Notes: generated by a model from the letters alone, not told the origin. Counted from the first letter of the stretch, positions 1 to 30,475 are shown. The stretch: 64,000 nucleotides of DNA from Trypanosoma brucei (GCA_000002445.1 CH464491.1:1408001-1472000); one strand, 5' to 3'. A program made the numbers and translations.

Positions 1-3000
1 CTCTACTCCTGCGTATGCGCTATGGGGCACATGTTACGTGTGGGTGCCCCTGCCTCGGCATGTCATAAGGTCATTGAGTTTGTAGAAGGGAATTCAGTGC
101 AGCCGATTATGCCGCCACCTGAGGGGGTTACCAAAGGAAGTATGGTTGTTAAAGCTCCAGTTGTAAGGTCTGCTTCACTTATACTTCTGCGTGACATTCT
201 TTCCTCAAAGCTGGCAACTTTAAGAGTTCATCAGCAGGTTTCTACTGCTTTATACAACGCGATGTCCGACCGTTGCGCTGTGGTACTCCGTAGGGCGTGG
301 GAGCTTCAACTACTTTGGTTTGGTAGTGACTCTTCCAGTGCATTGTCTCACATGCAAGGCGGATTTCTCCGTGTGGTGATGAACAGTATCACGGATTGCA
401 ACGACCCTGAGGTGGCAGAGATTATTTACCCGTCACTCGTACCATTGCTTGTTCCAGTCACTCGTTCTTCAGCCTTCGCCAGCGCGATTGAGGAATTCAG
501 CGAGGTGCTTCAACGCAAGATCCTAAATGTCAGTGATGTGGTACAGCGGGAATGGGATTTAGTGCTTTCCTCACTAATGCGTGTGTGGGAACTTCGGTGT
601 GTCCGCTCAGCGAAGCTAGGGGAGGGACACGAACGCGAAGGCGCCACGATGTTTTCTTCTATAGTAGCAACACTGGCCACAGCTCTCGAACAACCAGCGC
701 GGCGGGGACGGCTTCTCAGCACAACAGCCTCCGTCGTAGCACAGACATTGGAGCGTGTAGCTCGTCATACTGAGTGCTTCAGTGAATGTGTGCAACTCTT
801 GTGTGGCCCCACGGACTCTTTTTCTCAACGGACTGGTGGAGGGGCAAGCGCTGCACTGGTGGAAAGCTTCGATGTACTTCAGGCGGCATTAATTGGCTCT
901 TCTGTGAGTTTACCGGGCGTGCTTGTCGGGGCGGAAACGCTTATGGCAAAGTACGTGGAAAAGAAACAATGGAACATTCTTGCGGAACTGTTGCAGTCAA
1001 TGACAGACGCGTATGGAAGTTGTGTTCGCGAAGAGCATGCACATTCTCCCGTGGGTATCCCTTCTAAAGAGATTCAAAAACTTGTTACGAACGGTGTTTT
1101 ACGTGCTGTGAGACTGAGCATATCAGCAGAGCGGAAGGATAGTGATGGGGTGGAACCGATGCACCCCCTTCAGCGGGTTCTCTCTTACGTCCTACAGTGG
1201 AGTGACGATGATGCACTTAGTGAACTGCAACAGATCGCTGCCACCGTGGGACCGGGACCGTTTTGGTTGAAGGATTTACTTCGAAGTCACGAGTTAAGGG
1301 ATCCTGAGCGGTTGATCACTTTGTTTTCAAAAGCTTGTGAGGAAGCTGACTTTCGTACAGTGGAGCTATGTGTGGATTCGCTTCTCGGCGAACAGGAGGT
1401 TAACCCCCGCCCACTGACGAGTGCCGAGAAGAAGGGGCTCAGGCAGGCTGTTCAGGAGTCGTTGCGGAAACTACACCTGCTAGTGTCGGTCGACAACGAT
1501 GAAAGTGAGGAAGAAGCAGAGGAGTCCTCCAAGGAAGGTGACAGCGGATCGGGTTACGATGGCAGCGGGGCAGGTGACAGCAGTGGTGACGAAGGTAGCG
1601 AAGGCGCTGCGGAGGCTGACGGTAGTGGAAATGAAGGCGACTCAAATAGCGGCACTTTGGTTCAACAGCAGCTCATCGCATGGGCGAGGTTTCTACGGAG
1701 TGGCGAGCCCTTCGCTTCACTTCTGGAAGTCAGTAGCGAGGACATCGATTTACCAATGGTATTCCGCATCGTTGCTTCCATCGCTCCGCGGTTGCATGCA
1801 GAGCAATACATGTCTATTAAGGCACTTCGCATGGCCCTGCAAATGGAAGAGGACCCACTTCTGGTGGCGATGTCAAAGAAAATACATTCTATCGATTCGA
1901 AGGCCTTCAATGTAGTCGTGGAGTCTATCGAACAACTGCTCAACTCGTACGGCGTCTCAGTGGAAGAGAGAGATACTGTATCACTGGAGTTGTTTGATAG
2001 TGTCATGAGCGACCCGCAGAGTAGCATCGCAGCGTGTGGGAGGCTGCAGCACATTGTGCCCTTCGCTTCTTGTAGTCTGATCCAAGGAATTGCGTGCAGC
2101 GGCGACGTCTGGTTGGAGCACCAAGTTCACCTACGTGCAAATGTGGCTGCCACAGGGACTGGGAAAGTACCGTTTGCGTTGTTGGATCAGTACTCTCCAC
2201 TATGCGGAATCGTACCATCAATGTTGCGTTGTGTACGAACCTCTCAACTGATTCACTTGCTTGCTTCCTCGGTGGAACTTAACTCAGCGAGTGCCGCTGT
2301 TGTTGGGCGGCCCCTGTTGCACGCCGCCCACGTGCAGGAGGTGCTGGCTGAGCCAACGAGGAGGCTGCTCGTGACAAAGCTGCTGCCGCGTGTCTTACTC
2401 TCCATCTCATCGCCCAAAGAAGTAGACACACTGCTCCTACGCGGAGAGGAGGTGCACAAACTTCTGTTTACGCTTGCTGTCGTGATCCGGGATACCGCAG
2501 TTCACTCCAGTGGTGACGCGTTCAACTCTAGCGTCCGGTGCATTGTAAGCACCATTACACAGTGGATTGCCGAAGCCGCTCTTCTGCATGTGGGCGATGC
2601 GCCGACACATGAAGAAGCTATTCGCCATTATCGTGCGTTATTTTCTACACTGGATGAAGCTGCTGACATTGTTGGGGATTCTTTTCTCGCTAAAGTTCCT
2701 TCTGGCGAAGCTGCTTCTGCTATTCAAGAATCTATGTGCATGATCCCTACACTGCATCCCAATACGGGATTGCTCGCGATGACGCTTCACAGGCATCTAA
2801 GTCATTTACCAGTTGTGAGGGGTGATACTGTCCGTCAGGTTATTGACTACGCCAGGAAAAAAAAGCCTCTCGATGGCCTCGAATTCCTGGCGGAACTCAC
2901 TTCCAGTCGCATTATTGACACGGAGGCCTACAACGAGCTTGTGCATGTCTTCACACGCTTGCTAGCGAGTTCCTTCAGACTTCGCTATATGCCACCGAAT

Positions 3001-4521
3001 AATTGCCTTGTTTCTCAAGCACCGAATGATGCACCCATTTCGTTATGCGATACTCAACGTGCAGTTGTCGCCGTTGTTTCGGCAAGGCGTGGTATTAACT
3101 TGCACAACCGCGTTGATGATACGTTACGGAGCTCCATAAATCTTGTGTTGTTCGACGCTGTGGCAGGATCTGTGGTTTCACTTAAGCAGGCGAACGAGGA
3201 GGAACTGTCACTCATGACTAAACTCATTGCCTTCACCTCGAACTGCCTTAGTGATTTGGGCTCGTCGGATGTGACGGTTCTGCGGGCTTCGGAGGTAAGC
3301 GTCACGAAGGTGGCTGCAGTTATGAATTATGCCTATCAGTGGCTCTGCGCCACCTCTATTACTCGGTTAGACAGCATTGGGATGGAGACTGTGACAAGTG
3401 CTATTCGCGCTATCGCGCTGCTTTCTAACTTAACACTCGTGCGCTCTGGGTTCGTTCTGCTTCCCATCATGCGGCCGATAACGGGAAGACGCTCAATGAA
3501 GGACATTCGGGAGGAGTTTAGTTCAAAGTCACCGGCAAAAGCAATAATATTCCGGAGGCAGGCGGCTGTAATTGCCAAAACGAACAAGCAAAAGTTAACC
3601 CTCTTTCCGCACTTGCTTGCGTGGTGTGTAACGCTCAGTGGTCCTGTGCAGGAGCGTGTAAGCAAAGAATGGCGAGAGGAAGTTTTTCAACTTCTTGACG
3701 TCTTATGCGCACTATTGCTTTCCCCGGCTGTACCAGGAAGCAAGCGGGTTGAAAATACATACCTTTGTAACGGTAATGGTAGTAGTGGTGCTGGTGAGCA
3801 GCTGGGTTTCGAAATAATTGCGTTAACACGTCCCAATGCAGCAGATCCCATGCGTGAGTTGGCGAAGGGCGCCGCCGCCGTCTTTGCCCTTTTGTTGCAG
3901 AGCAGCACACTTTCCATTGTCAAGAGTTGGCTTGAGACTGTGGAGCGAAAACTGCAGGACTATTTTTATACATTTGTAGAGGAGCACTTGTCACCATGTC
4001 TCATACGAGAGAGCCTCCTCATGGTGTTAAGCAAGAACCCAACCGGGGGCTCGACCTTCGACGTGAACGAAAGGTACACCGTGTCCGTGTGCACCTTGAG
4101 GAATCGCATTACACTTAAATATACGGTGGAAGATACAGATTCAACGGTTCATATAGAATTTAAGCCTGATTTCCCGTTAAGGCCCCCGGTGGTCACATGT
4201 GAAAAGACACGGGGCTGCGGGGTATCCGCGGACAAATGGCACGTGTGGATGCGGAAAATGACTGTATTGCTTTTCGGTGGGTCATCCAATGTATGGGACT
4301 GTGTGATGCTCTTCGGCAGGAATATGGACGAGCACTTTTCCGGTAAAGATCCTTGCCCCATTTGTTTTGCTATCGTTTCAGCTTCGAGTAATCGTCTTCC
4401 CGATATGCAGTGTGCAGTGTGCCGTAACTCTGCAATACACTCCGATTGCCTCTACTCGTGGTGGGCGACCGGGGGGCGAACCGTGTGCCCGCTTTGTCGT
4501 TCCCCATGGGTAGCAACCTAA
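1..4521 (+). CDS. LTN1: Listerin/Ltn1 (Rkr1)-like E3 ubiquitin ligase, 5' partial; ORF is open to the window edge, first in-window ATG at 22
   Basis: The C-terminus CPICFAIVSASSNRLPDMQCAVCRNSAIHSDCLYSWWATGGRTVCPLCRSPW matches the Listerin RING-H2 signature (CP-C-[YF]..LP...C..C.N.FHS.CLY.W......CPLCR). It is preceded by an RWD-like block (YTVSVCTLRNRITLKYTVEDTDSTVHIEFKPDFPLRPPVVTCE). The long alpha-helical body is consistent with HEAT/ARM repeats. No in-frame stop occurs between nt 1 and 22. Confidence 0.85.
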   Translation, partial: LYSCVCAMGHMLRVGAPASACHKVIEFVEGNSVQPIMPPPEGVTKGSMVVKAPVVRSASLILLRDILSSKLATLRVHQQVSTALYNAMSDRCAVVLRRAWELQLLWFGSDSSSALSHMQGGFLRVVMNSITDCNDPEVAEIIYPSLVPLLVPVTRSSAFASAIEEFSEVLQRKILNVSDVVQREWDLVLSSLMRVWELRCVRSAKLGEGHEREGATMFSSIVATLATALEQPARRGRLLSTTASVVAQTLERVARHTECFSECVQLLCGPTDSFSQRTGGGASAALVESFDVLQAALIGSSVSLPGVLVGAETLMAKYVEKKQWNILAELLQSMTDAYGSCVREEHAHSPVGIPSKEIQKLVTNGVLRAVRLSISAERKDSDGVEPMHPLQRVLSYVLQWSDDDALSELQQIAATVGPGPFWLKDLLRSHELRDPERLITLFSKACEEADFRTVELCVDSLLGEQEVNPRPLTSAEKKGLRQAVQESLRKLHLLVSVDNDESEEEAEESSKEGDSGSGYDGSGAGDSSGDEGSEGAAEADGSGNEGDSNSGTLVQQQLIAWARFLRSGEPFASLLEVSSEDIDLPMVFRIVASIAPRLHAEQYMSIKALRMALQMEEDPLLVAMSKKIHSIDSKAFNVVVESIEQLLNSYGVSVEERDTVSLELFDSVMSDPQSSIAACGRLQHIVPFASCSLIQGIACSGDVWLEHQVHLRANVAATGTGKVPFALLDQYSPLCGIVPSMLRCVRTSQLIHLLASSVELNSASAAVVGRPLLHAAHVQEVLAEPTRRLLVTKLLPRVLLSISSPKEVDTLLLRGEEVHKLLFTLAVVIRDTAVHSSGDAFNSSVRCIVSTITQWIAEAALLHVGDAPTHEEAIRHYRALFSTLDEAADIVGDSFLAKVPSGEAASAIQESMCMIPTLHPNTGLLAMTLHRHLSHLPVVRGDTVRQVIDYARKKKPLDGLEFLAELTSSRIIDTEAYNELVHVFTRLLASSFRLRYMPPNNCLVSQAPNDAPISLCDTQRAVVAVVSARRGINLHNRVDDTLRSSINLVLFDAVAGSVVSLKQANEEELSLMTKLIAFTSNCLSDLGSSDVTVLRASEVSVTKVAAVMNYAYQWLCATSITRLDSIGMETVTSAIRAIALLSNLTLVRSGFVLLPIMRPITGRRSMKDIREEFSSKSPAKAIIFRRQAAVIAKTNKQKLTLFPHLLAWCVTLSGPVQERVSKEWREEVFQLLDVLCALLLSPAVPGSKRVENTYLCNGNGSSGAGEQLGFEIIALTRPNAADPMRELAKGAAAVFALLLQSSTLSIVKSWLETVERKLQDYFYTFVEEHLSPCLIRESLLMVLSKNPTGGSTFDVNERYTVSVCTLRNRITLKYTVEDTDSTVHIEFKPDFPLRPPVVTCEKTRGCGVSADKWHVWMRKMTVLLFGGSSNVWDCVMLFGRNMDEHFSGKDPCPICFAIVSASSNRLPDMQCAVCRNSAIHSDCLYSWWATGGRTVCPLCRSPWVAT

Positions 4522-12483: not shown

Positions 12484-15400
12484 ATGTTCTTCAGGTTTCA
12501 TAGCACAACATTACAAACATGCCTGACGTCTGGAGTCGCTCGTTCCTCCGTCGCCGTTGCAGTGCCTTTACGAGCGGGGTGTACTCGACGGGAAATGTCA
12601 TCGGGAGGCGACGGGGTTTTGGAAGGTGCGATGCATAAGCCTGGCGAATCCGGTCTCCAGGCGGGGAGCAGCACCACCATTGCTGGTAAGGAAACATGGT
12701 CTCAATTTAGTACCAAAATGAGGTATGGTAGGCGTCGTATTCGAGTTATTGATGTTGCAGCAAAGATGTCATATGAGTATCAAATGCTCCGGAAAATGTG
12801 CAAGCGTCGCCCCGCCATGCGGCAGTGGGCAGTGCGGGATGACTTCTGCGATATGAATCCCGGTGTGGTGATCATGTCGCCTTCGATGCAAGCAGCCTTT
12901 ATGAAGGTATTTCGTATGAAGGAAAAGGGTCTCATTCGTCAGTGCCTACGTGATATTGTCCCTGTCATTGAGTACCGCAACCGAGAGGAACCAGCACGAC
13001 TCCCAACAAACCCAGCAGACATGATCCCGGAGGGTGAACCCGATACGCTAAATCAGAAAAAACGGGAACTATTTGAGCGGCGTGAGAAGGGTGAAAACTT
13101 TGCCGATCTCCGTCTCCACGACAAAAGATCACAAGCGAAACTCCGCTTTAGGATTCGCCAACGGTTGCTAAAGTTTCAACGGCAACTGGCAGTCGCCAAT
13201 GCAATTGCCAGCCGATCTGTACTTTACTCCACAAACGATGCGATTGGCTACTTTCTGTTCCGTGGGGCAGCCATGTATGCCGGGATGCATCGCGTGTTTT
13301 TTGAACTCAGCAAACAATTGCCACACTTCGTGCCCAAAACTATGTTAGACTTCGGGGCTGGCACTGGGACTGCCATACTTGTCGCGAAGGAGGTGTACGA
13401 TCCCGGTTCCCTTGCTTACCCGCTTTACCGATCACTTCGGCAGACAATGCAGGGAAATGATTCCTCCCGTACACATCAGCTCTCCGAGTTGCGGTATGAC
13501 CTCAAGCGACTGCAGCGCAACAACGAGGAGAAAAAGAAGGTGCGCTTCATGGCGGTTGCAGCGTTACTGGAGCGCGGCGAGGTTGACCCTGCAGATCTTC
13601 CAGAAGACCTAAAGCGAGAAATTGCTGAGGTTGCGACCGCTGCTGCAACTGCAAAAAAGGACCGCCTTGTGCGGGAGGCACATGCGAGGTACCGTGACGT
13701 AGTTGATGGTACCGAATGGGAGAGCGGCGATCCTCTCGGGGAGGTTCGTGCGAGTACGGAGGATCCGGAGGATGTTATCGACGGAGAACAGGGCGACGGC
13801 GGCGATGACGGCGAGGCGGCGAAGGGTCGCCCGAAAACGTGGTGGGAAAAGCTTATTGATGTGGAAAATGAAACAGCTCGCACTCGCGCCGCCAGACGAC
13901 TTCGCCCTCTTCAGGAAGTTACTGCAGTAGAGCCAAGTCCAGGCATGATGGAGATAGGGACGATGGTTCTTCATGACGATGTACCCAACGTTACGTGGAA
14001 GCGTTATTTGCTTCCCGAAGATGAAGCGATCCAACACGATTTGGTTGTTGCCGCGTATTCACTTAGCGAAATTGCCACCTCAGAGAACCGCCGCCGCATT
14101 GTGCAGCAATTGTGGAAGATGACCAAAGGTGTTCTTGTGTTTGTTGAGTTTGCTAATCTTAATAACTTTAACATCTTAATGGAGGCGCGCGACTGGATCC
14201 TCGAGGAAAAGGATGTTGGTCTCTGGGATTGGCAGCCCACCATTGTAGCTCCTTGTCCCCACGAACATCGCTGTCCTTTGAGGCACTGCAAAACTGGTGT
14301 GAAGCGAAAGCGTATGCGTATTTGCAGCACGGAAGCGCACTACCGTTCCACATTTGTTGAGGTGTGGGCACGGCATATGCCGCTGAAGGTTGGCATTGAA
14401 CCGATTTCTTACTTGATTTTGGCACGTAATGAGCTTGTACCTGAGCGGGCCGAACGCCGACGAGAACAGTTGAAGAAAGCAGAAGAGATGAAACGGCGGG
14501 AACGCGATGTGAAGCAGCAGCAGTTGCATGAGGCGTCGCTCGCAGTCAAAGACGTCGTGTTCGAGCGCCTTAGCGATGAGGCACTTCACCGCGTGCAGAG
14601 TGGTGTTCCTCAACCTTTAACTGATATCGATGAAGTTCGGGAGGCTTCCACCTCCGCAACTTCGACTTCTCTTCTCAAAGATTTGAAAGACGGTGCGACG
14701 AGTACGGGTGAGATTGGTCATATGCCAACTGATGTGCCGCGGTTGGTGAAGACAGGCAACACCCGGCACAATCGGCTCATATTTCCGCTCCAATTTCCCC
14801 CGGCGACGCATAAGTTTAACCGTGCGTTTGTGGATGCGGGTTATCAGAGGCAACGCGCCATCACGCCTGCAGAAATGCTTGTGGTGCGCCAAGAAGTTGA
14901 ACAGCTGCAACAGCGTGTCATGCGAGCTGCCCCGAAGTATTTGCGTGTTGTGAGGGACCCACGTTGCCACGGCAAAGTGCAAGCTGATTTTTGTACCCCA
15001 GAGGGTGATCTTGTGAGTGGTCGCGTTTATAGGCGTTTTTACGGCGATAGGAATCGCGTGAGTGCGCACAGTACGATGCGATGGCAACACATTGGCGGCT
15101 GGAAGTTGCTGAAGCGCATTCGACGGGGATCTTTGTTCCCACACAATGTTCCGCTGTATGCTGTGACGAAGCACGCTCAGATCGACTTTCCCAACACTCT
15201 TCTCGACACCAAGCACTCAACGGTAGAGCAGACGGCCATGCAGTACAACGATCCTATGTCACTTGTGGAGATGCCGGATGATGGACTAACCCGCGAGGAA
15301 CTTAAACAAAAGCGTCGTTTGCAACGTGACGTTGAGCTGCAGAAAAAGGTGGAAGAGAAACTGGAAGATATATTTGGTGTAAATGCTAAGGACTGGAAGA

Positions 15401-24542: not shown

Positions 24543-25589
24543 AAAGTAAAAGTAAAAAATAAAAAATAAATAATGAAAAGCATATGCATATACATATATG
24601 TAAACACGAGTGCATGTACATACATGTGTTTTGCTTATTTTCTTTTTCTTTTTGTCGTTGTCATTGACAACCATTTCCATCCGTACCAAATCTACCTTTT
24701 TTTAAATTTTTTTCCCGCTTCGCGTGGGTGTTTTATTTGGGTTGCCATGGAGTAAGGGTCACGAAAGGAATAACTGTGCCTTTTAACGGGGTTAAATGCA
24801 TACATGTAAACAACACGGGTTGGTTAAAACTATGAACGTTTGAGGGGTAAAATAACACTAATAACATGTGACGGAACTTTCTCTCTGCTCCTATGTATTA
24901 ACTCACGGGTACGTAATCTCTACTTTTTGTTTTATAGTGGCCTTTTTTTCCCTCTCCCCTCCTCTCCCTCTTCGCACATTTCTTTTTTTTAGGTATTGGT
25001 TGGGTGCATACCCAAGAAAGTAGAGACACCTTCTAACGTTCAGTTTGATATTCTCCCCCGTGGCACACAGTGGGGGACCCACTTGAAAAGTTTGCGATGG
25101 TAACAAGGGGAGGATGAAATGAGGAGGTAAAGAAACTTGTGTGGGTTTCCGTAATGCCTGTAACAGAAGGTCAAGGAACTGTAAATACAAACACACACAA
25201 AAAAAGAGGAAGATTCAGTTAGACCTAAAGTCTGCCGTTAACACCTTTCCCTCCCCCCCGTGAAGCGGCATTTATGTGTGTATTTGTGTGAGGAAGGGAA
25301 GTGTTGGGAGCTAAACGGTGAGGCAGCGGCCCGCTTATGTTTAGTAGAACTTATCATCTCATACATCCTCCTATAAGAACATATGCTTGTATCCGTGGCT
25401 GTTTGCTTTGCGTATTCGCACGTGCTGTTCTATTGTTTTTTTCATTTGTTTTCATTAGCTACCCCTCACAACCTTTTTACCTTGTTTGTGAGCCTTTGGC
25501 AGCGCATTAGTAGAGAAAAAGGAGTGGAGAGCAACCTGTATTGTATCATTACAACACCAGCATCCATTGTAGAGATATCTGGAGGTAAT

Positions 25590-28283
25590 ATGATATCAGA
25601 GAGCCAGATGTTTAGCCCGTGGCGCAACTCTGCGCGAGATCAAGCACAATTACGTAGTTGTGCCCTAGCTGCCCCCAGTGCAGCAGCTTCTCGTTACATT
25701 CACCGGCTTGAGGAGGAGGTTTCGGCTCTCACGCAGCACTACAATACGGCCTGCCACTTGTTGCACCGCGCCATTTTAGTACAGGATTTATCTTCTGTTA
25801 TCATAGACGAATTGGAGGGTCGCAGCCACATCGTTGAAGAAGAGAGCACGTTGAGAAGCAATATGATGTGGCTGTGCATGAGTATGACATCTGTTCTTAG
25901 GCGCACTGTGCCGCAGCACAGTACTGCAGTGCGAGCGGGAACAGCGTCCCAGGTAGATTCAGACGCTGCACGAGACCTAAATGGGTTGCCAGAGCGTATT
26001 ATAAACGCTGTGCGGCACACAGTAGAGCAGGGGAGCGAACGTGTCAGTGAGTTAGTGAGTGCCGTTCCACGAAGGGTGTGCATGGCACTTTCGACTGAAG
26101 ATATCGGAGTAAACAGGTCAAAACATAATGCCAGCGTGATGCAGAACGAGGAGTACCGCTCTGGATTTTCTACAATGCAGCGACAATTAGACCGTGTGCT
26201 AAGTCGTGTAGAAGATATTCTTAGCGAGTTTAACACTGCTCAGCATGCACTAGTGAATCAGCAGCGTGACGACGAGTATAGCAAGGGATACGTTGTATCG
26301 CTTCAAACAGCAGCCAAAAATGTGGAGGATTTATCAACGCAAGTTGCTGAGCTATTGCGCCAACTACAGCAGATGCGGCGGGACCAGTTACAACACCAAC
26401 AAACTTCTGTAAGCTCATCATCACAACCACAACTTTCACCTGCAAAGGTAACCTTTACAGAAACGACTCAGACGACCGGTCCACTACCATCGTGTGATGC
26501 AGTGACTCAGACGCTTCCGCAACCCGAACCTGCCGCATCAAAGGTAGAGAGCCCTGCAACACAAAGAGTTAAAATTGTCCAAGCTTCTTCGGTTACTGCG
26601 CAGACCCAAACTGCTGGCCCTCCACCTACTGCCACAACCGCAACCCAAACAAAAACGCCCCCATCGTCACCAACAGACGTAACGAGGGAGAATCGTACAA
26701 CTCAGCGATCGATACTTACAGCGCCACTGCCAACAGTAGCAACAGGAACTCAAACCGACACCCCTAAACCATCAGCTGCAGAACTGGCGCCATCGACCGA
26801 CAAGTGTCTCCGGGATTCGCGAGCTGCAGAGGAGTGGAAACTGTTGATGGAATTTGCTGTCAACGCCATTAACGTCCTATCGTCGAATGTGCGTGATTAC
26901 GTCTCAACTTTCGAGAAGATCCAGAGACTCTCGGAGCAGGAAATAGATTTCCTCCAACAAGTGGGTGACAGCCGGAAAACGAGACGATGGGAGTCTCTTC
27001 TTGCAGAAAAGAGCGCTGAGATTGTGCGACTTAATGAGGAGGTAACAAAACTAGACAGCGCTATCAAAGCTGCGGAGAAACCAAGGACGAGATCTTCCCC
27101 TAGCCCGGCGCGTTCGGAGGATAATAACACACCTTCTCTTGCGCAATTATACGCCGCGTATTCTGCACCTTTCATACCACCGAAGCTTCGTACCACTCAG
27201 AAGGTCAAATTGCTTCCCACCACTGAACTGCTGAAAGCAGCTTTACGTGCTGGAGCTCGCTCTGCTACAGAAGGAGACAGTACAGGGGCTCGTAGCGGTA
27301 CAGTGACGCCTAAGAGCGTGAGCCGAAGTCCTGGAAAGAGTGGCGAGGGCTCGCCCGTTTCGAGGCAGGGATTGACACCGGATGCAAAAGCTGCTAAAAA
27401 AGTTGCAATAAGTGAGCCCAATAAAATGCCTTTCCAATCAGCCCCGAACGCAGCGGTTAGGGGTGGTGATATTTCTCCCCTGACGGGATCGCGTAGATCT
27501 ACTGTCGCCGCTCCTCCCGCTGCTACGAAACACGTTGAAAAGCGCACTCATAGGGTGTTTGACGATGACACTCCCGTGGCTACTCCAAGGGTTTCTACAG
27601 TCACTAAAGCTCCTGACACCAGTGACAAACCGTCTTTGCCTTCTAGTAAGATTCGGAAATCCGACGCCGCCGCTGCGAAAAGCTCCCCCAGGGCTGCTTC
27701 TCCACCACCAACGTCCGCAGTTTCTATAGGCGGTGACGTTGTTACTGTGCGAAAATTCAAAAGGTCACTTTCCTCGTCATCTTCGTCCTCTGGGAAGGCA
27801 GATACAATTGCCCCGCTACGAGCCAAGAAGAGTGAAGTTGGCAACAAAGAATCTCATGAAAAAGGAGAAGACGGGAAACCAAAGGATGAGCCCAAGAAAT
27901 TGGAGATGCGCCAACTGAAAAAGAAGTCCTTTTCTAGCGACAGTCTCAGTGTCTCGCTTTCTGATGTTCCTGTCACCCGTCCAAAGGTAGAGAAGGTTGC
28001 CGATAAACCAAAATCAGCAGCTGCCAACAACTCATTCGACGAAAGCAGCGATGACGAGCCTAAGAGAGCTTTACACCGCGTATCTGTGCCGGCGAAGAAC
28101 AATGAACGCAACGAGCAAACTCCGAGCAACAAGTGCCAAGACAAACCGAGAGAGAAAAGGTGGAGTGAAACCTCCTCTTCGTTGGATGATAAAGAAGGAG
28201 GAAATGAGAAAGCTGCAGCCAAAAAGGGTGTATCCAAGAATGCTTCAAAAAGTACTGATACATCTCTAACGTTAACTCTGTAA
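25590..28283 (+). CDS. hypothetical Ser/Thr/Pro/Lys-rich disordered protein with N-terminal coiled-coil; the track ORF 25383.. runs through polyY sequence and the first plausible ATG is 25590
   Basis: Continuous 2.7 kb ORF. Coiled-coil-like heptads near the N-terminus and at QVGDSRKTRRWESLLAEKSAEIVRLNEEVTKLDSAIKAAE. The C-terminal ~500 aa are S/T/P/K-rich with many SP/TP dipeptides and TQT repeats. Confidence 0.5.
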   Translation: MISESQMFSPWRNSARDQAQLRSCALAAPSAAASRYIHRLEEEVSALTQHYNTACHLLHRAILVQDLSSVIIDELEGRSHIVEEESTLRSNMMWLCMSMTSVLRRTVPQHSTAVRAGTASQVDSDAARDLNGLPERIINAVRHTVEQGSERVSELVSAVPRRVCMALSTEDIGVNRSKHNASVMQNEEYRSGFSTMQRQLDRVLSRVEDILSEFNTAQHALVNQQRDDEYSKGYVVSLQTAAKNVEDLSTQVAELLRQLQQMRRDQLQHQQTSVSSSSQPQLSPAKVTFTETTQTTGPLPSCDAVTQTLPQPEPAASKVESPATQRVKIVQASSVTAQTQTAGPPPTATTATQTKTPPSSPTDVTRENRTTQRSILTAPLPTVATGTQTDTPKPSAAELAPSTDKCLRDSRAAEEWKLLMEFAVNAINVLSSNVRDYVSTFEKIQRLSEQEIDFLQQVGDSRKTRRWESLLAEKSAEIVRLNEEVTKLDSAIKAAEKPRTRSSPSPARSEDNNTPSLAQLYAAYSAPFIPPKLRTTQKVKLLPTTELLKAALRAGARSATEGDSTGARSGTVTPKSVSRSPGKSGEGSPVSRQGLTPDAKAAKKVAISEPNKMPFQSAPNAAVRGGDISPLTGSRRSTVAAPPAATKHVEKRTHRVFDDDTPVATPRVSTVTKAPDTSDKPSLPSSKIRKSDAAAAKSSPRAASPPPTSAVSIGGDVVTVRKFKRSLSSSSSSSGKADTIAPLRAKKSEVGNKESHEKGEDGKPKDEPKKLEMRQLKKKSFSSDSLSVSLSDVPVTRPKVEKVADKPKSAAANNSFDESSDDEPKRALHRVSVPAKNNERNEQTPSNKCQDKPREKRWSETSSSLDDKEGGNEKAAAKKGVSKNASKSTDTSLTLTL

Positions 28284-29110
28284 CATTTTTTGCTGTTGTT
28301 CTTGTGTCTGCGCTATAAATATCTGTTGTCGTTTGCGCTCCCAGCGATGACTTTCACCCTCTACGCGGAGAACCTTTTTCGGCGTGTGTGTGTATGACTA
28401 ATTGAACGTTCTTTTTCTTTTTTTTTGACCTATCGTGTGAAGATGAAACGCATTTCTCCTTAGTGAGACTATCTTCTATGACGATGTCCGTTCATTTTTG
28501 TTACAACAGAGTTACGTGAGAGAACTGTGGGGAAACGGGAGGGGATGGGTGGTGAGGGGTTCCTTCTTGATTGCTTTTCTTGCTTTTTTGTTCCCTTTAA
28601 GTACATATGGCCACATAGATTTTTTTTTATGTGTTGCTTACCATCGCTTCCGTTAGTTACGCGAATTTATTTGGCACGTTACCTTACTGTGGCCCTCTAG
28701 CACTTTTTTGTACATTGTATATTTTCGTCCTATTCCTCTAATTCGGTGCTCAGCACATGCGCACGTTCAGGTATTTTGATGAATTATGCTATTGAATCAG
28801 TTTTACTCTATTATTGCTTATAGATCGTAAAAAGAGGAATAAATAATATAGATACACATGCTTATATATATATGTTAGTTTAATCGAAACGTAAGAAGGA
28901 GGATCGTGTTGCAGTGGCGTGAGATTCTACATTTTCTGTGGAGGTGGTTTTGTGGTTCTGTTGAGTACTTAACACGAGTTGCCTAGCGCCAACTCGTTGG
29001 AAATAATATCGTAGTTAGCAACTTACCATTTTGTCCTCGTTTCTCACCTTTTCTCCTCCGCATAGCGTGCAGTACTAGTTTTATCATACCGCGTCTTTGT
29101 GCGGTTGCAG

Positions 29111-30475
29111 ATGGCACTGAATGTCGTGAGCATGGTGATTAAGATCAACCGCGTGCTGCTCATCGGCTGCGTTGCCTACCTTTTGTCCCGCGTTGTTGAC
29201 GGATTGATCAGGGGCGACGATCTCCTTGGAAGGGAGAACCATCAACGTTTTAGCGTGCTACCTAACGGTAATGCAATTCACCTAAACTTTGTGATCCGAA
29301 AAAACCGCAACTGTACCGACCACCACTCATCACACAGTGATGAGGGAATCAAAGATAGCATCAGTGGTATCAGTACTGCTGCCGACGCAATACCAAAAAA
29401 ACGGTCGAGCACGGCCCCACATCATGTGAAGCAGCCAAGTTCGACTGGGGTAATGGCCGTCTTCACATTTGGGCGACCGCACCTCCCCAACGGTGCCATA
29501 ACCGACACGTTTAAGAAGCGGTTAGTGCATGCAGTGCGAATGGCGCTTCTTACCGGTGCTCCTTGGATTATTGTCCCATGTAGTCGAGGAGAACGCACGA
29601 ACTCCGAGGCATTCTTGCGGAACATGGGCTCTCCAGGAGATCTTCTCTTTAATGATGCCGTCGTAGAGGATCTTCCCCCCGAACTACAGGAACTGGCTAA
29701 GCAGCTGCGCGATTCGATGCGTTTCGCCGCTTCGTTAGACGAATGGATTCAAAGTGGCAACCCTATTGAACATTTTGCGCGAGTTGCCAACGTAGAGGGA
29801 ACTGGTGTATCGATTGCCTCCCCGCGCCTCTTACGACACGGACAATCTCAATGGATTATTCCGGAGTTTGTGTGGGTTGATCGCAATGAGTCGTGGGTGG
29901 TGAATACAAAGGAAGATATCAAACATGGTTTACTTGTCTTGCTGAGGCGTGTCCTTCAAATTGATTTCTATGGCGAAAATAGTGAGTCACAATCCAAGCA
30001 GGATGCAGACGCAGCTTGGTTGGAACGGGGCATATTTGATATCATTGTGGTGGGAAGTATGCATAACGAGGGATTTCTTTACTCAGCTACCTCAAGGGAA
30101 TTGAGCTTTCTCTCGCGGGCACATCGTCAAAGTACCGTACTCCAAAGACAGGGACGAGAAAACTTGCTTGTGTCGTGGCTTTCGAAGAATATTAACGTTC
30201 GAATTACTTCTGCGGAGGACTCCGTCCCAGAAATTACAGTTCCAGAGCCATGGATCGTTGACGCTCAGCCCGAACCACGCGCCTTGAGGAAGGCCTGGTG
30301 GTTGTTTAGGATGCTTGCTCCATTATCTCACACTATCCACCTGAATTATTGCCGCTGGAGTGCGTGCATACGCTGTTCACTGACATCTGTCAGGATTATC
30401 AACTTCGTCTTTGAGTTTTTTGCCGCAATTGAGGCTATTTTGACAGAAAAGGTGAACATGCTCGGTTACTTTTGA
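29111..30475 (+). CDS. hypothetical protein; track start 29099 is GTG and the first ATG is 29111
   Basis: Hydrophobic N-terminus MALNVVSMVIKINRVLLIGCVAYLLSRVV (signal-anchor-like). No recognisable catalytic motif. Confidence 0.45.
   Translation: MALNVVSMVIKINRVLLIGCVAYLLSRVVDGLIRGDDLLGRENHQRFSVLPNGNAIHLNFVIRKNRNCTDHHSSHSDEGIKDSISGISTAADAIPKKRSSTAPHHVKQPSSTGVMAVFTFGRPHLPNGAITDTFKKRLVHAVRMALLTGAPWIIVPCSRGERTNSEAFLRNMGSPGDLLFNDAVVEDLPPELQELAKQLRDSMRFAASLDEWIQSGNPIEHFARVANVEGTGVSIASPRLLRHGQSQWIIPEFVWVDRNESWVVNTKEDIKHGLLVLLRRVLQIDFYGENSESQSKQDADAAWLERGIFDIIVVGSMHNEGFLYSATSRELSFLSRAHRQSTVLQRQGRENLLVSWLSKNINVRITSAEDSVPEITVPEPWIVDAQPEPRALRKAWWLFRMLAPLSHTIHLNYCRWSACIRCSLTSVRIINFVFEFFAAIEAILTEKVNMLGYF

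What the first reader, a model, noticed from the sequence alone, without database searches (positions are those of the whole stretch)
25590..28283. Large intrinsically disordered Ser/Thr/Pro/Lys-rich protein with dense SP/TP motifs
After an N-terminal coiled-coil, about 500 aa are low-complexity with many SP/TP dipeptides, KK clusters and TQT repeats (e.g. GTVTPKSVSRSPGKSGEGSPVSRQGLTPDAKAAKK, SSSSSSSGKAD). The composition resembles proline-directed-kinase substrates such as MAP-like cytoskeletal or nuclear scaffold proteins. The start is ambiguous: the track ORF begins 200 nt earlier inside pyrimidine-rich sequence.
Basis: partly seen in the sequence, partly recalled or inferred. Interest (0 to 1): 0.5.

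Follow-up and report, generated by a model that had tools for sequence, protein, structure and literature searches.

The report
Orphan trypanosome coiled-coil scaffold protein

Summary
The ORF is real. The window is T. b. brucei TREU927 chromosome 11, and 25590-28283 (+) is Tb927.11.5100, annotated "hypothetical protein, conserved". It shows normal codon bias, purifying selection, and syntenic orthologues in eight other trypanosomatid species including Leishmania. Phosphopeptides have been detected by mass spectrometry.

The ATG at 25590 is the start. The 966-aa database models translate a polypyrimidine tract.

About 470 aa are predicted disordered, but in two stretches (aa 276-403 and 557-897).

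SP/TP density (19 sites) barely exceeds what composition predicts (13.3 ± 3.1). It is not enriched in any orthologue, and no site is conserved across the genus. The only phosphosites found in the datasets I could search, S819/S820, lie in a conserved acidic motif (NSFDESSDDE) that is not proline-directed.

The five TQT triplets are significant (0.6 expected; p = 1.5e-4). T. congolense also has five in an otherwise ~33 % identical linker. TQT is the anchor of the LC8 recognition motif.

Best reading: a kinetoplastid-specific dimeric scaffold carrying short docking motifs, possibly a multivalent LC8 client. Localisation and function remain untested. No Pfam or PDB family matches. Interest is modest.

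The parts
25590..28283 (+). Coding sequence of Tb927.11.5100 (897 aa plus TAA stop)
   Evidence: ORF and translation. The 966-aa ORF is identical to TREU927 XP_828585.1/Q385Q8. Frame-1 codon log-likelihood is 0.127 bits/codon, against 0.11-0.20 for neighbouring genes and negative values in all other frames.
25383..25589 (+). Upstream in-frame extension used by the 966-aa GenBank/UniProt models; most likely 5' UTR/intergenic sequence, not coding
   Evidence: It translates a polypyrimidine tract (MLVSVAVCFAYSHVLFYCFFHLFS...). Orthologues in T. congolense, T. vivax, T. theileri and T. grayi start at the Met equivalent to 25590. Phosphosite numbering fits only the 897-aa model.
25428..25501 (+). 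Polypyrimidine tract (25428-25489) with candidate trans-splice acceptor AGs at 25457, 25491 and 25501
   Evidence: Pyrimidine and AG scan. There is no ATG between 25383 and 25590. Use as the splice site is inferred, not shown.
25629..26414 (+). N-terminal helical, heptad-rich (coiled-coil-type) region, aa 14-275
   Evidence: AF2 helices with pLDDT 55-82 but no confident packing (pTM 0.22-0.26). Heptad a/d occupancy exceeds the 99th percentile of shuffles.
25680..25787 (+). Most conserved block, aa 31-66 (SRYIHRLEEEVSALTQHYNTACHLLHRAILVQD)
   Evidence: R35, Y36, I37, L40, E41, E43, V44, L47, Q49, A54, C55, L57, A61, Q65 and D66 are invariant across the Trypanosoma sequences of alignment A3; with T. 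theileri, T. grayi and Leishmania added, R35, Y36, I37, L40, E41, E43, V44, L47 and D66 remain invariant. RYIxRLEEEV is also present in Leishmania.
26415..26798 (+). Disordered T/Q/P-rich linker, aa 276-403; long only in T. brucei and T. congolense
   Evidence: pLDDT 26-35. It is the least conserved segment, with mean identity 0.09. It is much shorter in T. cruzi, T. vivax and T. grayi.
26466..26474 (+). TQT motif 1 (aa 293-295, TETTQTTG)
   Evidence: It aligns with T. congolense TQT at P0129 aa 38.
26505..26513 (+). TQT motif 2 (aa 306-308, DAVTQTLP)
   Evidence: Position -4 is D (favoured for LC8) but +2 is L (disfavoured) under the rules in PMC6607443.
26604..26612 (+). TQT motif 3 (aa 339-341, TAQTQTAG)
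   Evidence: Spacing to motifs 4 and 5 (13 and 35 aa) matches T. congolense (12 and 34 aa).
26643..26651 (+). TQT motif 4 (aa 352-354, TTATQTKT)
   Evidence: It aligns with T. congolense TQT at P0129 aa 110.
26748..26756 (+). TQT motif 5 (aa 387-389, ATGTQTDT)
   Evidence: Position +2 is D, which is favoured for LC8.
26799..27077 (+). Second helical region, aa 404-496, ending in a leucine-zipper-like coiled coil (aa 463-496, RRWESLLAEKSAEIVRLNEEVTKL)
   Evidence: AF2 helices 404-458 and 461-496, pLDDT 62-80. The W..(E)K..E(I/V)..L..(E)(V/I)..L pattern is conserved as far as Leishmania. The segment is triplicated in T. vivax. Sub-threshold PDB profile hits are all parallel coiled coils (GCN4, Par-4, Csm1, Spc42).
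27138..27266 (+). Conserved island, aa 517-559: LAQLYAAYSAPFIPP ... LLKAALRAGARSA
   Evidence: Y521, P527, P530, A551 and G555 are invariant in all 8 species including Leishmania. AF2 predicts short helices at 517-534 and 544-553. There is no Pfam match even at E ≤ 10.
27258..28280 (+). Basic, Ser-rich disordered C-terminal tail, aa 557-897
   Evidence: pLDDT ~30 throughout. pI 9.95, net charge +22. Frame-1 coding signal 0.124 bits/codon.
27735..27791 (+). Conserved basic-then-serine motif, aa 716-734 (VVTVRKFKRSLSSSSSSS; pattern hydrophobic-x-R-x-x-S)
   Evidence: Conserved as IRRLQRDGS, IRTFKRDIS, MRQLNRSLS and VRRLNKSES in other trypanosomes. That a basophilic kinase uses it is inferred.
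27900..27947 (+). Second copy of the same motif type, aa 771-786 (LEMRQLKKKSFSSDSL)
   Evidence: Aligns with T. vivax LEIRQLKRDLSSSS.
28029..28064 (+). Conserved acidic motif NSFDESSDDEPK, aa 814-825; S819/S820 (nt 28044-28049) are phosphorylated in vivo
   Evidence: NSFD(E/D)(S/T)(S/T)(D/E) is kept in eight of the nine Trypanosoma/Leishmania sequences compared, including both Leishmania species (T. rangeli has NSSDESFD). Phosphosites S819 and S820 of Tb927.11.5100 are listed in Dataset S1 of PMC11408851. Their mapping onto serines is shown.
28260..28280 (+). C-terminal TSLTLTL
   Evidence: (S/T)(I/L)(T/S)LTL is C-terminal in T. brucei, T. congolense and T. vivax, and internal in T. cruzi, T. 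rangeli, T. theileri and T. melophagium. Function unknown.

Best explanation
The region encodes a genuine, expressed, kinetoplastid-specific protein, Tb927.11.5100 (897 aa, 97 kDa, starting at ATG 25590).

Architecture:
- a ~260-aa helical, heptad-rich N-terminal region;
- a 128-aa disordered T/Q/P linker;
- a second ~95-aa coiled coil ending in a leucine-zipper-like segment;
- a short conserved helical/PFIPP island;
- a 340-aa basic, serine-rich disordered tail.

It most likely works as an elongated, parallel-dimeric scaffold or adaptor. The two coiled coils would hold two chains in register. The disordered parts would present short linear motifs to partners.

The conserved motifs are not SP/TP sites. 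They are:
(i) five TQT triplets in the inter-coil linker. This is the anchor of the recognition motif of the LC8 dynein light chain. LC8 dimers bind two client chains side by side, so an array would zip and stiffen the linker.
(ii) a hydrophobic-x-R-x-x-S plus poly-Ser motif, present twice;
(iii) the acidic motif NSFDESSDDE, which is phosphorylated in cells on S819/S820 in a casein-kinase-2-like context.

Shown: gene identity, coding status, start codon support, conservation and synteny, predicted helices and disorder, TQT enrichment and its retention in T. congolense, and S819/S820 phosphorylation.

Inferred: dimerisation, LC8 binding, which kinases act, and the scaffold role. Cellular location and process are unknown.
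For: Gene identity:
- The 966-aa ORF is 100 % identical to TREU927 XP_828585.1/Q385Q8.
- The next gene, Q385Q7 at 51.1 kDa, is Tb927.11.5110. The upstream gene is mASAT Tb927.11.5090. The target is therefore Tb927.11.5100.

Coding status:
- Frame-1 codon log-likelihood is positive in every segment, including the low-complexity ones.
- dN/dS is 0.35 against T. b. gambiense. Against T. congolense, non-synonymous differences per site are well below synonymous ones (~0.42 vs ~0.77).

Orthologues:
- Syntenic orthologues lie between mASAT and a SET-domain gene in T. cruzi, T. vivax, T. theileri, T. grayi, T. congolense and L. martiniquensis, and after mASAT in L. tarentolae, where the SET-domain gene was not identified.
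- phmmer over 1.84 billion representative proteins finds only Trypanosoma proteins.

Structure:
- AF2 helices and disorder.
- Heptad windows coincide with the predicted helices.
- Sub-threshold PDB hits are only coiled coils.

Conserved islands are listed.

TQT:
- 5 observed against 0.60 expected (p = 1.5e-4) in T. brucei.
- 5 observed against 0.18 expected (p < 5e-5) in T. congolense.
- It is the top tripeptide in both linkers and the only one repeated in both. The chance of any tripeptide reaching 5 copies is 0.022 and 0.0056.
- Spacing of the last three motifs is conserved (13/35 versus 12/34 aa).
- T. theileri and T. melophagium carry one near-canonical EKGTQTEE in the same linker.

LC8 background:
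- LC8 binds 8-10-residue motifs in disordered regions, anchored by TQT, and duplexes clients. Multivalent clients exist, such as Nup159 and ASCIZ (PMC12057147; PMC6607443).
- T. brucei has LC8 acting outside dynein, in the CITFA transcription factor (PMC6562600).

Phosphorylation: S819 and S820 of Tb927.11.5100 appear in Dataset S1 of PMC11408851 with localisation probability 1. They fall on NSFDE-S-S-DDE.
Against: - No localisation, interaction or phenotype data were found for this gene. The text-held TrypTag and hyperLOPIT supplements have no entry for it.
- AF2 confidence is moderate at best (mean pLDDT 43, pTM 0.22, nine-row alignment). Dimeric coiled coils are inferred, not modelled.
- Many TQT-containing peptides do not bind LC8 (PMC6607443).
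- The T. brucei and T. congolense flanks meet the published preferences only partly. Position -3 is often A or T. Position +2 is L, A, T or K in four of five T. brucei motifs. One T. congolense motif has P at -4.
- The TQT array is absent from T. vivax, T. cruzi, T. rangeli, T. grayi and Leishmania. It cannot be the family's core function.
- Only one phosphoproteomic dataset could be read for this gene, so phosphorylated SP/TP sites may simply not have been seen.
Confidence: 0.55

Rival explanations
1. The protein is chiefly a substrate of proline-directed kinases (CDK/MAPK type), and a MAP-like cytoskeletal or nuclear scaffold regulated through its many SP/TP sites.
For: There are 19 [ST]P sites, four times the density of neighbouring proteins. 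Four fit S/T-P-x-K/R. The tail is basic (pI 9.95, net +22) and S/P/K-rich like MAP projection domains.
Against: - Enrichment over composition is marginal (19 versus 13.3 ± 3.1; p ≈ 0.05). It is absent in the tail alone (p = 0.18) and in all seven orthologues tested (p 0.17-0.92).
- No [ST]P position is conserved across the genus.
- There is no tubulin-binding repeat or any Pfam domain.
- The phosphosites actually recorded are acidophilic.
- The CRK2 phosphoproteomic supplement held as text does not list the gene. This is weak evidence, because only 2 small files were held.
Confidence: 0.15
2. Same scaffold protein, but the TQT triplets are not LC8 sites. They would be relics of a degenerate T/Q-rich peptide repeat inherited by T. 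brucei and T. congolense, or they bind some other reader.
For: - The linker is 23 % Thr and 9 % Gln.
- Flanks fit LC8 preferences only partly.
- Many TQT peptides do not bind LC8.
- The array is missing from most other species.
Against: - TQT exceeds composition by about 8-fold in T. brucei and 28-fold in T. congolense.
- It is the only repeated tripeptide shared by the two linkers, although they are only ~33 % identical.
- No DNA tandem repeat is detectable.
- T. theileri and T. melophagium carry a single near-canonical E-K-G-T-Q-T-E-E in the same place.
Confidence: 0.3
3. It is a DNA-damage-response adaptor. The acidic NSFDESSDDE motif would be a damage-regulated phospho-docking site. This parallels LC8 clients in mammalian repair such as 53BP1 and ASCIZ.
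For: - S819/S820 are listed among the 'significantly changing' sites, about 2.5-fold up 12 h after an I-SceI break at a chromosome-internal locus and unchanged (0.98-fold) at the subtelomeric locus (PMC11408851 Dataset S1).
- 53BP1 and ASCIZ are LC8 clients (titles and abstracts).
Against: - This is a single dataset. The same list is full of cytoskeletal and flagellar proteins (FAZ2, CALP1.1, PIFTA1), so membership is not specific.
- Digits were lost when the table was stored as text, so the significance value cannot be read.
- There is no nuclear localisation evidence.
- There are no BRCT, FHA or other repair domains.
Confidence: 0.1
4. The 966-aa model is right. The hydrophobic N-terminus (MLVSVAVCFAYSHVLFYCFFHLF...) would be a signal peptide or membrane anchor, and the T/S/P-rich regions would be mucin-like.
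For: The in-frame ATG at 25383 is used in the GenBank models for TREU927 and DAL972. The extension scores 0.124 bits/codon in frame, but over only 69 codons.
Against: - The extension is the translation of a polypyrimidine tract followed by AG sites.
- Orthologues start at the downstream Met. The analogous T. cruzi 829-aa extension is likewise poly-Phe and is absent from the 791-aa models of nine other T. cruzi sequences in the same cluster.
- The phosphosite numbers fit only the 897-aa protein.
- Coiled coils and Ser phosphorylation point to a cytosolic or nuclear protein.
Confidence: 0.02
5. The region is a non-coding spacer misread as an ORF.
For: Low-complexity sequence with no domain hits.
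Against: - A 2.7-kb open frame with gene-like codon usage in every segment.
- Intact syntenic orthologues as far as Leishmania.
- Purifying selection.
- Phosphopeptides detected by mass spectrometry.
Confidence: 0.01

Closest known systems
Tb927.11.5100 orthologue group ('hypothetical protein, conserved': XP_828585.1/Q385Q8, TEOVI_000492100, T. cruzi Q4CPD5, T. rangeli TraAM80_00305, T. vivax CCC53043.1)
   Same: Identical sequence to the TREU927 entry, with syntenic orthologues. This is the gene itself.
   Different: Nothing differs except the start codon. The TREU927 and DAL972 GenBank models are 69 aa too long. No function, domain or motif is described in any source name.
Multivalent LC8 (DYNLL) clients: Nup159, ASCIZ/ATMIN, KANK1 L2 linker, 53BP1
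   Same: A disordered segment carries several TQT anchors and lies next to a self-association (coiled-coil) domain. In such clients LC8 dimers bind pairs of chains and turn a floppy linker into a ladder or rod (PMC12057147, PMC6607443, PMC12803091 abstract).
   Different: - There is no sequence homology to any of them.
- Flanking residues are sub-optimal by the LC8Pred rules.
- Binding is untested.
- The array exists only in T. brucei and T. congolense, with one motif in the T. theileri group, so it is a lineage-specific addition to an older protein.
Microtubule-associated proteins with basic S/P/K-rich projection domains (tau/MAP2/MAP4 type)
   Same: A basic, proline- and serine-rich disordered region with SP/TP dipeptides.
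   Different: There are no microtubule-binding repeats and no Pfam hit. SP/TP sites are not conserved. Two coiled coils dominate the conserved part.
Acidic casein-kinase-2-type phospho-motifs in disordered scaffold tails (for example the MDC1 SDT repeats; recalled from general knowledge)
   Same: S/T residues are followed by D/E at +1 to +3. The motif lies in a disordered tail, is phosphorylated in cells, and is reported to rise after a DNA break.
   Different: There is a single copy with a conserved N-S-F-D prefix not seen in those motifs. No reader domain or kinase has been identified. The resemblance is a lead from memory, not a test.

Membership tests
Tb927.11.5100 orthologue group (kinetoplastid conserved hypothetical protein) | Sequence identity to the reference entry | tested here: met
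   The window's 966-aa ORF has 0 differences from P0004 (XP_828585.1/Q385Q8). It is 99 % identical to T. equiperdum P0001.
Tb927.11.5100 orthologue group (kinetoplastid conserved hypothetical protein) | Conserved gene order (mASAT, target, ~450-aa gene, SET-domain gene) | tested here: met
   The full order is seen in T. cruzi, T. vivax, T. theileri and T. grayi, and the downstream half in T. congolense. In L. martiniquensis and L. tarentolae the orthologue follows mASAT, but the downstream genes have no SET hit on record. An environmental kinetoplastid-like contig keeps the full order.
Multivalent LC8/DYNLL client | TQT (or close variant) anchor lying in an intrinsically disordered region | tested here: met
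   Five TQT at aa 293, 306, 339, 352 and 387, all in the pLDDT < 35 linker.
Multivalent LC8/DYNLL client | Anchors are more frequent than composition predicts and are conserved in relatives | tested here: met
   p = 1.5e-4 in T. brucei and p < 5e-5 in T. congolense. TQT is the only tripeptide repeated in both linkers. Spacing is conserved.
Multivalent LC8/DYNLL client | Flanking preferences: large residue at -3, polar at -4, P/D/E at +2, no internal proline (PMC6607443) | tested here: inconclusive
   - The rules are met only partly.
- Motif 5 (TGTQTD) and motif 1 (TETTQTT) fit best.
- Motif 2 has L at +2.
- Several motifs have A or T at -3.
- The T. theileri EKGTQTEE is near-canonical.
- The LC8Pred matrix itself was not available.
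Multivalent LC8/DYNLL client | Self-association domain next to the motif array | tested here: inconclusive
   Heptad-rich helices are predicted on both sides. The oligomeric state was neither modelled nor measured.
Multivalent LC8/DYNLL client | Physical binding to LC8 | not testable with these tools
   This needs a pull-down, ITC or a multimer model.
Proline-directed-kinase substrate / MAP-like protein | [ST]P sites enriched beyond amino-acid composition | tested here: inconclusive
   19 versus 13.3 ± 3.1 (p ≈ 0.05) in T. brucei. There is no enrichment in seven orthologues.
Proline-directed-kinase substrate / MAP-like protein | Positional conservation of the [ST]P sites | tested here: not met
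   None of the 19 sites is kept across the genus. At most two are kept in T. congolense, and one aligns with TP in T. rangeli and T. grayi.
Proline-directed-kinase substrate / MAP-like protein | Microtubule-binding repeats or another recognisable MAP domain | tested here: not met
   No Pfam family reaches its cut-off for the protein or any of seven orthologues. The only hits are chance-level or generic coiled-coil matches.
Proline-directed-kinase substrate / MAP-like protein | Phosphorylation observed on SP/TP sites | not tested
   Only one dataset listing this gene could be read. It reports S819/S820, which are not followed by proline. The larger phosphoproteomes were not held or were cut when stored.
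Any curated protein family or solved structure | Significant profile or fold match | tested here: not met
   - Pfam: no family above its cut-off.
- PDB profile searches with three alignments: best E-value 0.09-0.7, all coiled coils.
- Foldseek against PDB: best E-value 1.6.

The most novel reading that the evidence does not exclude
In African trypanosomes of the T. brucei and T. congolense lineages, an old kinetoplastid coiled-coil scaffold has gained a five-site LC8-binding array between its two coiled coils. LC8 dimers would convert the floppy 128-aa linker into a stiff ladder, as in Nup159, ASCIZ or KANK1. The protein's acidic tail motif (pS819/pS820) would respond to DNA breaks. It would be the first multivalent LC8 client described in a kinetoplastid, and a lineage-specific one.
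Probability: 0.3. Interest if true: 0.5.

Novelty: new member of a known kind. Interest (0 to 1): 0.3.

Why it matters
About half of trypanosome genes are "hypothetical", and this is one of them. The analysis makes it testable in three ways:
- It corrects the start codon.
- It divides the protein into two coiled coils and two disordered regions.
- It gives a short list of conserved motifs that can be mutated one at a time.

If the TQT array does bind LC8, it would extend the "LC8 duplexes disordered clients" principle to kinetoplastids. There, LC8 is so far known outside dynein only in the Pol I factor CITFA. It would also show a motif array being gained within one parasite lineage.

If it does not, this is an ordinary lineage-specific scaffold protein. 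The practical lesson also stands: SP/TP counts in a Ser/Thr/Pro-rich protein say little unless they are checked against composition and conservation.

Tried and rejected
1. Word-indexed homologue search with the full protein returned only the T. brucei-group cluster, because low-complexity words swamped the candidate list. With the N-terminal 271 aa it returned only a T. congolense fragment and, oddly, not the identical P0001.
2. Exhaustive phmmer found 7 proteins, all Trypanosoma. Leishmania orthologues were reached only through synteny.
3. Pfam scans of the protein, of seven orthologues, and of the linker and the island at E ≤ 10 found nothing real. The hits (Clusterin, TMF_DNA_bd, PKcGMP_CC and others) were single-member coiled-coil noise.
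4. PDB profile searches with the whole-family, block-A and block-B alignments gave no E-value below 0.09.
5. The AF2 full-length and N-terminal models have low pTM (0.22 and 0.26). Foldseek against PDB gave no hit below E = 1.6. I ran no further search on low-confidence helices.
6. Literature. No main text in the library mentions Tb927.11.5100, its old-style ID, its UniProt or RefSeq accessions, or the guessed T. cruzi/Leishmania IDs. The TrypTag (preprint and journal), hyperLOPIT, cell-cycle phosphoproteome and CRK2 supplements held as text have no entry. Two papers had no held supplements. Urbaniak 2013 and Kirkham 2016 are not held.
7. Tandem Repeats Finder found no DNA repeat in the gene.
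8. I considered a WH2-like reading of 'LLKAALRAGAR' and an FFAT-like or FHA-ligand reading of NSFDESSDDE. Both came from memory, found no profile support, and were dropped.
9. I suspected paralogy among equal-length ORFs in the window (650/650 aa and 1499/1498 aa). They are unrelated.

Full report
**What and where.** All large ORFs in the window lie on the + strand, separated by pyrimidine-rich spacers. This is a trypanosomatid polycistron. The target ORF runs from ATG 25590 to TAA 28283 (897 codons). The mechanical ORF begins at an in-frame ATG at 25383 (966 codons).

The 966-aa translation is identical to T. b. brucei TREU927 XP_828585.1/UniProt Q385Q8. It differs at 12 residues from T. b. 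gambiense DAL972. The 897-aa T. equiperdum entry differs at 5 residues. So the window is TREU927 chromosome 11.

Three observations give the gene name:
- The upstream aminotransferase is mASAT, Tb927.11.5090.
- The next gene downstream (458 aa) is Tb927.11.5110: a proteomics table gives that ID as Q385Q7, 51.1 kDa.
- The target, Q385Q8, is therefore Tb927.11.5100. Every source names it only "hypothetical protein, conserved".

**Is it a gene?** Yes.
- With a codon model trained on 16 other ORFs of the window, frame 1 scores +0.09 to +0.15 bits/codon in every segment, including the low-complexity ones. Neighbouring genes score +0.11 to +0.20. The other five frames (one minus-strand frame in the tail is neutral at +0.03) and the intergenic controls score negative.
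- Against T. b. gambiense there are 9 synonymous and 10 non-synonymous changes, giving dN/dS 0.35. Against T. congolense, synonymous sites are saturated while non-synonymous divergence is ~0.6.
- The gene order fumarate hydratase, Rsm22, phosphodiesterase-family, small ORF, mASAT, target, ~450-aa gene, SET-domain gene recurs in T. cruzi, T. vivax, T. theileri and T. grayi. Part of it recurs in T. congolense.
- In each of these species the ORF in the target's slot is homologous (tblastn E-values 1e-42 to 1e-16).
- In Leishmania the orthologue follows mASAT: 1019 aa in L. martiniquensis, and split by a frameshift in one L. tarentolae assembly.
- Phosphopeptides from the protein have been recorded (see the phosphorylation section).

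**Start codon.** Four lines favour ATG 25590.
- The 69-aa extension translates a polypyrimidine tract (25428-25489). AG dinucleotides follow at 25457, 25491 and 25501, and no ATG occurs before 25590.
- The T. congolense, T. vivax, T. theileri and T. grayi proteins begin at the equivalent Met.
- The analogous extension in one T. cruzi model (829 aa) is likewise poly-Phe and is absent from nine other T. cruzi sequences in the same cluster.
- Published phosphosites S819 and S820 fall on Ser-Ser only in the 897-aa numbering. In the 966-aa numbering they would be Val and Gly.

Use of those AGs for trans-splicing is inferred, not shown.

**Architecture.** AlphaFold2 was run on a nine-row alignment (mean pLDDT 43, pTM 0.22). 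It predicts:

| Region (aa) | Prediction | pLDDT |
|---|---|---|
| 18-106, 133-174, 183-223, 228-275 | helices | 55-75 |
| 275-403 | disorder | ~28 |
| 404-458, 461-496 | helices | 62-80 |
| 517-534, 544-553 | short helices | — |
| 557-897 | disorder | ~30 |

- A separate run on aa 1-280 gives the same helices without confident packing (pTM 0.26).
- Windows whose a/d heptad positions are unusually hydrophobic (above the 99th percentile of shuffles) coincide with those helices.
- The disordered part is thus ~470 aa in two pieces.
- The tail is basic (pI 9.95, net +22). The helical parts are acidic.

**What is conserved.** A nine-sequence alignment (eight species plus T. brucei) shows conservation concentrated in a few islands:
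- aa 31-66, RYIxRLEEEV...ACxLLxRAxLVQD;
- aa 467-488, W..L..EK..EI.RL..EV..L, a leucine-zipper-like heptad run that is triplicated in T. vivax;
- aa 517-559, LAQLY..(F/Y).(A/S)PFIPP ... L(R/K)..A.R.GA(R)PA;
- aa 716-734, hydrophobic-x-R-x-x-S followed by poly-Ser, with a second copy at aa 771-786;
- aa 814-825, NSFDESSDDEPK;
- a (S/T)(I/L)TLTL element, C-terminal in the Salivarian species.

Most of these are recognisable in Leishmania.

**Family membership.**
- Profile searches against PDB gave only sub-threshold coiled coils (GCN4, Par-4, Csm1, Spc42, designed bundles).
- Pfam scans of eight family members gave nothing above any family's cut-off; the few single-member hits below E = 1e-3 (best: TMF_DNA_bd 2.1e-7, PKcGMP_CC 1.3e-5) are generic coiled-coil matches.
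- Foldseek gave nothing below E = 1.6.
- phmmer over 1.84 billion representative proteins found seven hits, all Trypanosoma.

The family is a kinetoplastid orphan.

**SP/TP.**
- There are 19 [ST]P (2.1 per 100 aa, against 0.49 in the window's other proteins).
- Shuffling the protein's own residues gives 13.3 ± 3.1 (p ≈ 0.05). In the tail alone the figures are 10 against 7.5 (p = 0.18).
- None of seven orthologues shows enrichment (p 0.17-0.92), and their densities are 0.9-1.5 per 100 aa.
- No site is conserved across the genus.

The SP/TP density is thus a by-product of composition and is not under detectable selection. This does not exclude phosphorylation at some of these sites.

**Phosphorylation actually recorded.**
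- Dataset S1 of a SILAC study of bloodstream forms after an I-SceI break (PMC11408851) lists Tb927.11.5100 S819 and "S82".
- The stored text drops zeros elsewhere in the same table ("FK56-binding"; a log2 of -0.25735 printed beside a fold change of 0.98). "S82" is therefore S820, and it carries the same ratios as S819.
- Localisation probability is 1.
- The fold change is about 2.5 at a chromosome-internal break and 0.98 at a subtelomeric one.
- The sites are the two serines of NSFDE-S-S-DDE, an acidophilic (casein-kinase-2-like) context inside one of the most conserved tail motifs.
- The same list holds many cytoskeletal proteins, so a specific DNA-repair role should not be read into it.

**The TQT triplets.** This is the one feature that clearly exceeds chance.
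- The linker (aa 276-403) has five TQT against 0.60 expected from its own composition (p = 1.5e-4). The 16 other ORFs of the window have none in 11,722 aa.
- The T. congolense linker is only ~33 % identical. It also has five (expected 0.18; p < 5e-5). Two align directly (motifs 1 and 4) and the last three keep their spacing: 13 and 35 aa versus 12 and 34 aa.
- TQT is the commonest tripeptide in both linkers (next best 2 and 3 copies). It is the only one repeated in both. The chance that any tripeptide reaches five copies is 0.022 and 0.0056.
- T. theileri and T. melophagium carry a single EKGTQTEE at the same place.
- T. vivax, T. cruzi, T. rangeli, T. grayi and L. martiniquensis have none.

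TQT is the anchor of the 8-10-residue motif by which the LC8 dynein light chain binds disordered clients. An LC8 dimer binds two chains side by side. Clients with several motifs next to a self-association domain (Nup159, ASCIZ, KANK1) are zipped into ladders (PMC12057147, PMC6607443, PMC12803091). T. brucei has LC8 acting outside dynein, as a subunit of CITFA (PMC6562600).

Against the published flank rules (large at -3, polar at -4, P/D/E at +2, no internal proline):
- the T. brucei motifs score only moderately;
- the best are TGTQTD and TETTQTT;
- DAVTQTL has a disfavoured +2;
- the T. theileri-group motif is near-canonical.

Many TQT peptides do not bind LC8. I therefore put LC8 binding at about one in three, and I could not test it.

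**Most likely mechanism.**
- The protein is an elongated dimeric scaffold. Two coiled coils would keep the chains in register.
- The linker (in T. brucei and T. congolense) and the tail would present short motifs to partners.
- Regulation would run through an acidic CK2-like site, shown to be phosphorylated, and through basophilic R-x-x-S/poly-Ser sites, which are inferred.
- The cellular process is unknown.
- The neighbour's TrypTag localisation (Tb927.11.5110: spindle pole and nuclear envelope) says nothing about this gene, because trypanosome polycistrons are not functional units.

**Novelty and verdict.** The gene is already catalogued. What is new is the corrected start, the domain and motif map, and the TQT/LC8 lead. 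It belongs to a known kind of protein (coiled-coil plus disordered phospho-scaffold) but to no known family. Interest is modest (0.3). It would rise to about 0.5 if the LC8 array proved real.

Noticed in passing
window 25383-25589; also T. cruzi P0138 (829-aa model): Public protein models for TREU927 (XP_828585.1), DAL972 (XP_011779723.1) and one T. cruzi CL Brener allele carry N-terminal extensions that translate polypyrimidine tracts (Phe/Leu/Ser-rich). They could be mistaken for signal peptides. The starts are probably mis-annotated.
   Followed up: yes
L003:12626-15273 (T. vivax GCA_021307395.1); L004:13319-16551 (L. tarentolae GCA_009731335.1): In these two assemblies the orthologue is split between two reading frames. 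T. vivax Y486 (882 aa) and L. martiniquensis (1019 aa) are intact, so these are probably assembly indels rather than pseudogenes.
   Followed up: partly
L006:10635-13475 (T. grayi): The orthologue is not annotated on the + strand. Two short minus-strand ORFs are called instead, and the gene runs into a gap of Ns.
   Followed up: partly
T. vivax P0143 / L003 about 13750-14100: The leucine-zipper segment of the second coiled coil (EKDAEIQRLRGEVAKLEKAQARAKAHDG) is present three times in tandem in T. vivax. This lengthens that coiled coil.
   Followed up: no
L005:10001-11254 and 13906-15159 (T. theileri): T. theileri has two 417-aa aminotransferase (mASAT) genes in tandem upstream of the orthologue. 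The other species show one.
   Followed up: no
window 29099-30475 (+), Tb927.11.5110: The downstream neighbour (458 aa, hydrophobic ends) is reported by TrypTag at spindle poles and the nuclear envelope. Its positional counterpart on an environmental kinetoplastid-like contig carries Pfam DUF218. The T. brucei protein gives no Pfam hit even at E ≤ 10.
   Followed up: partly
JGI metagenome 3300059473, 11,850-bp contig (no DNA available): An environmental contig has an mASAT 55 % identical to the T. brucei one. It keeps the order mASAT, 1070-aa protein, DUF218 protein, SET protein. A large protein therefore occupies the same slot outside the sequenced trypanosomatids. Its sequence could not be fetched.
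   Followed up: no
T. theileri L005 and T. melophagium P0132, N-terminal region: These two species lack the middle of the N-terminal helical region (equivalent to T. brucei aa ~107-190). That part is therefore dispensable for the family's core function.
   Followed up: no
window 22-4521 (+): The first ORF of the window (1499 aa) ends in a UBC-like domain plus a RING finger. This is an unusual pairing of E2-like and E3 modules in one protein.
   Followed up: no
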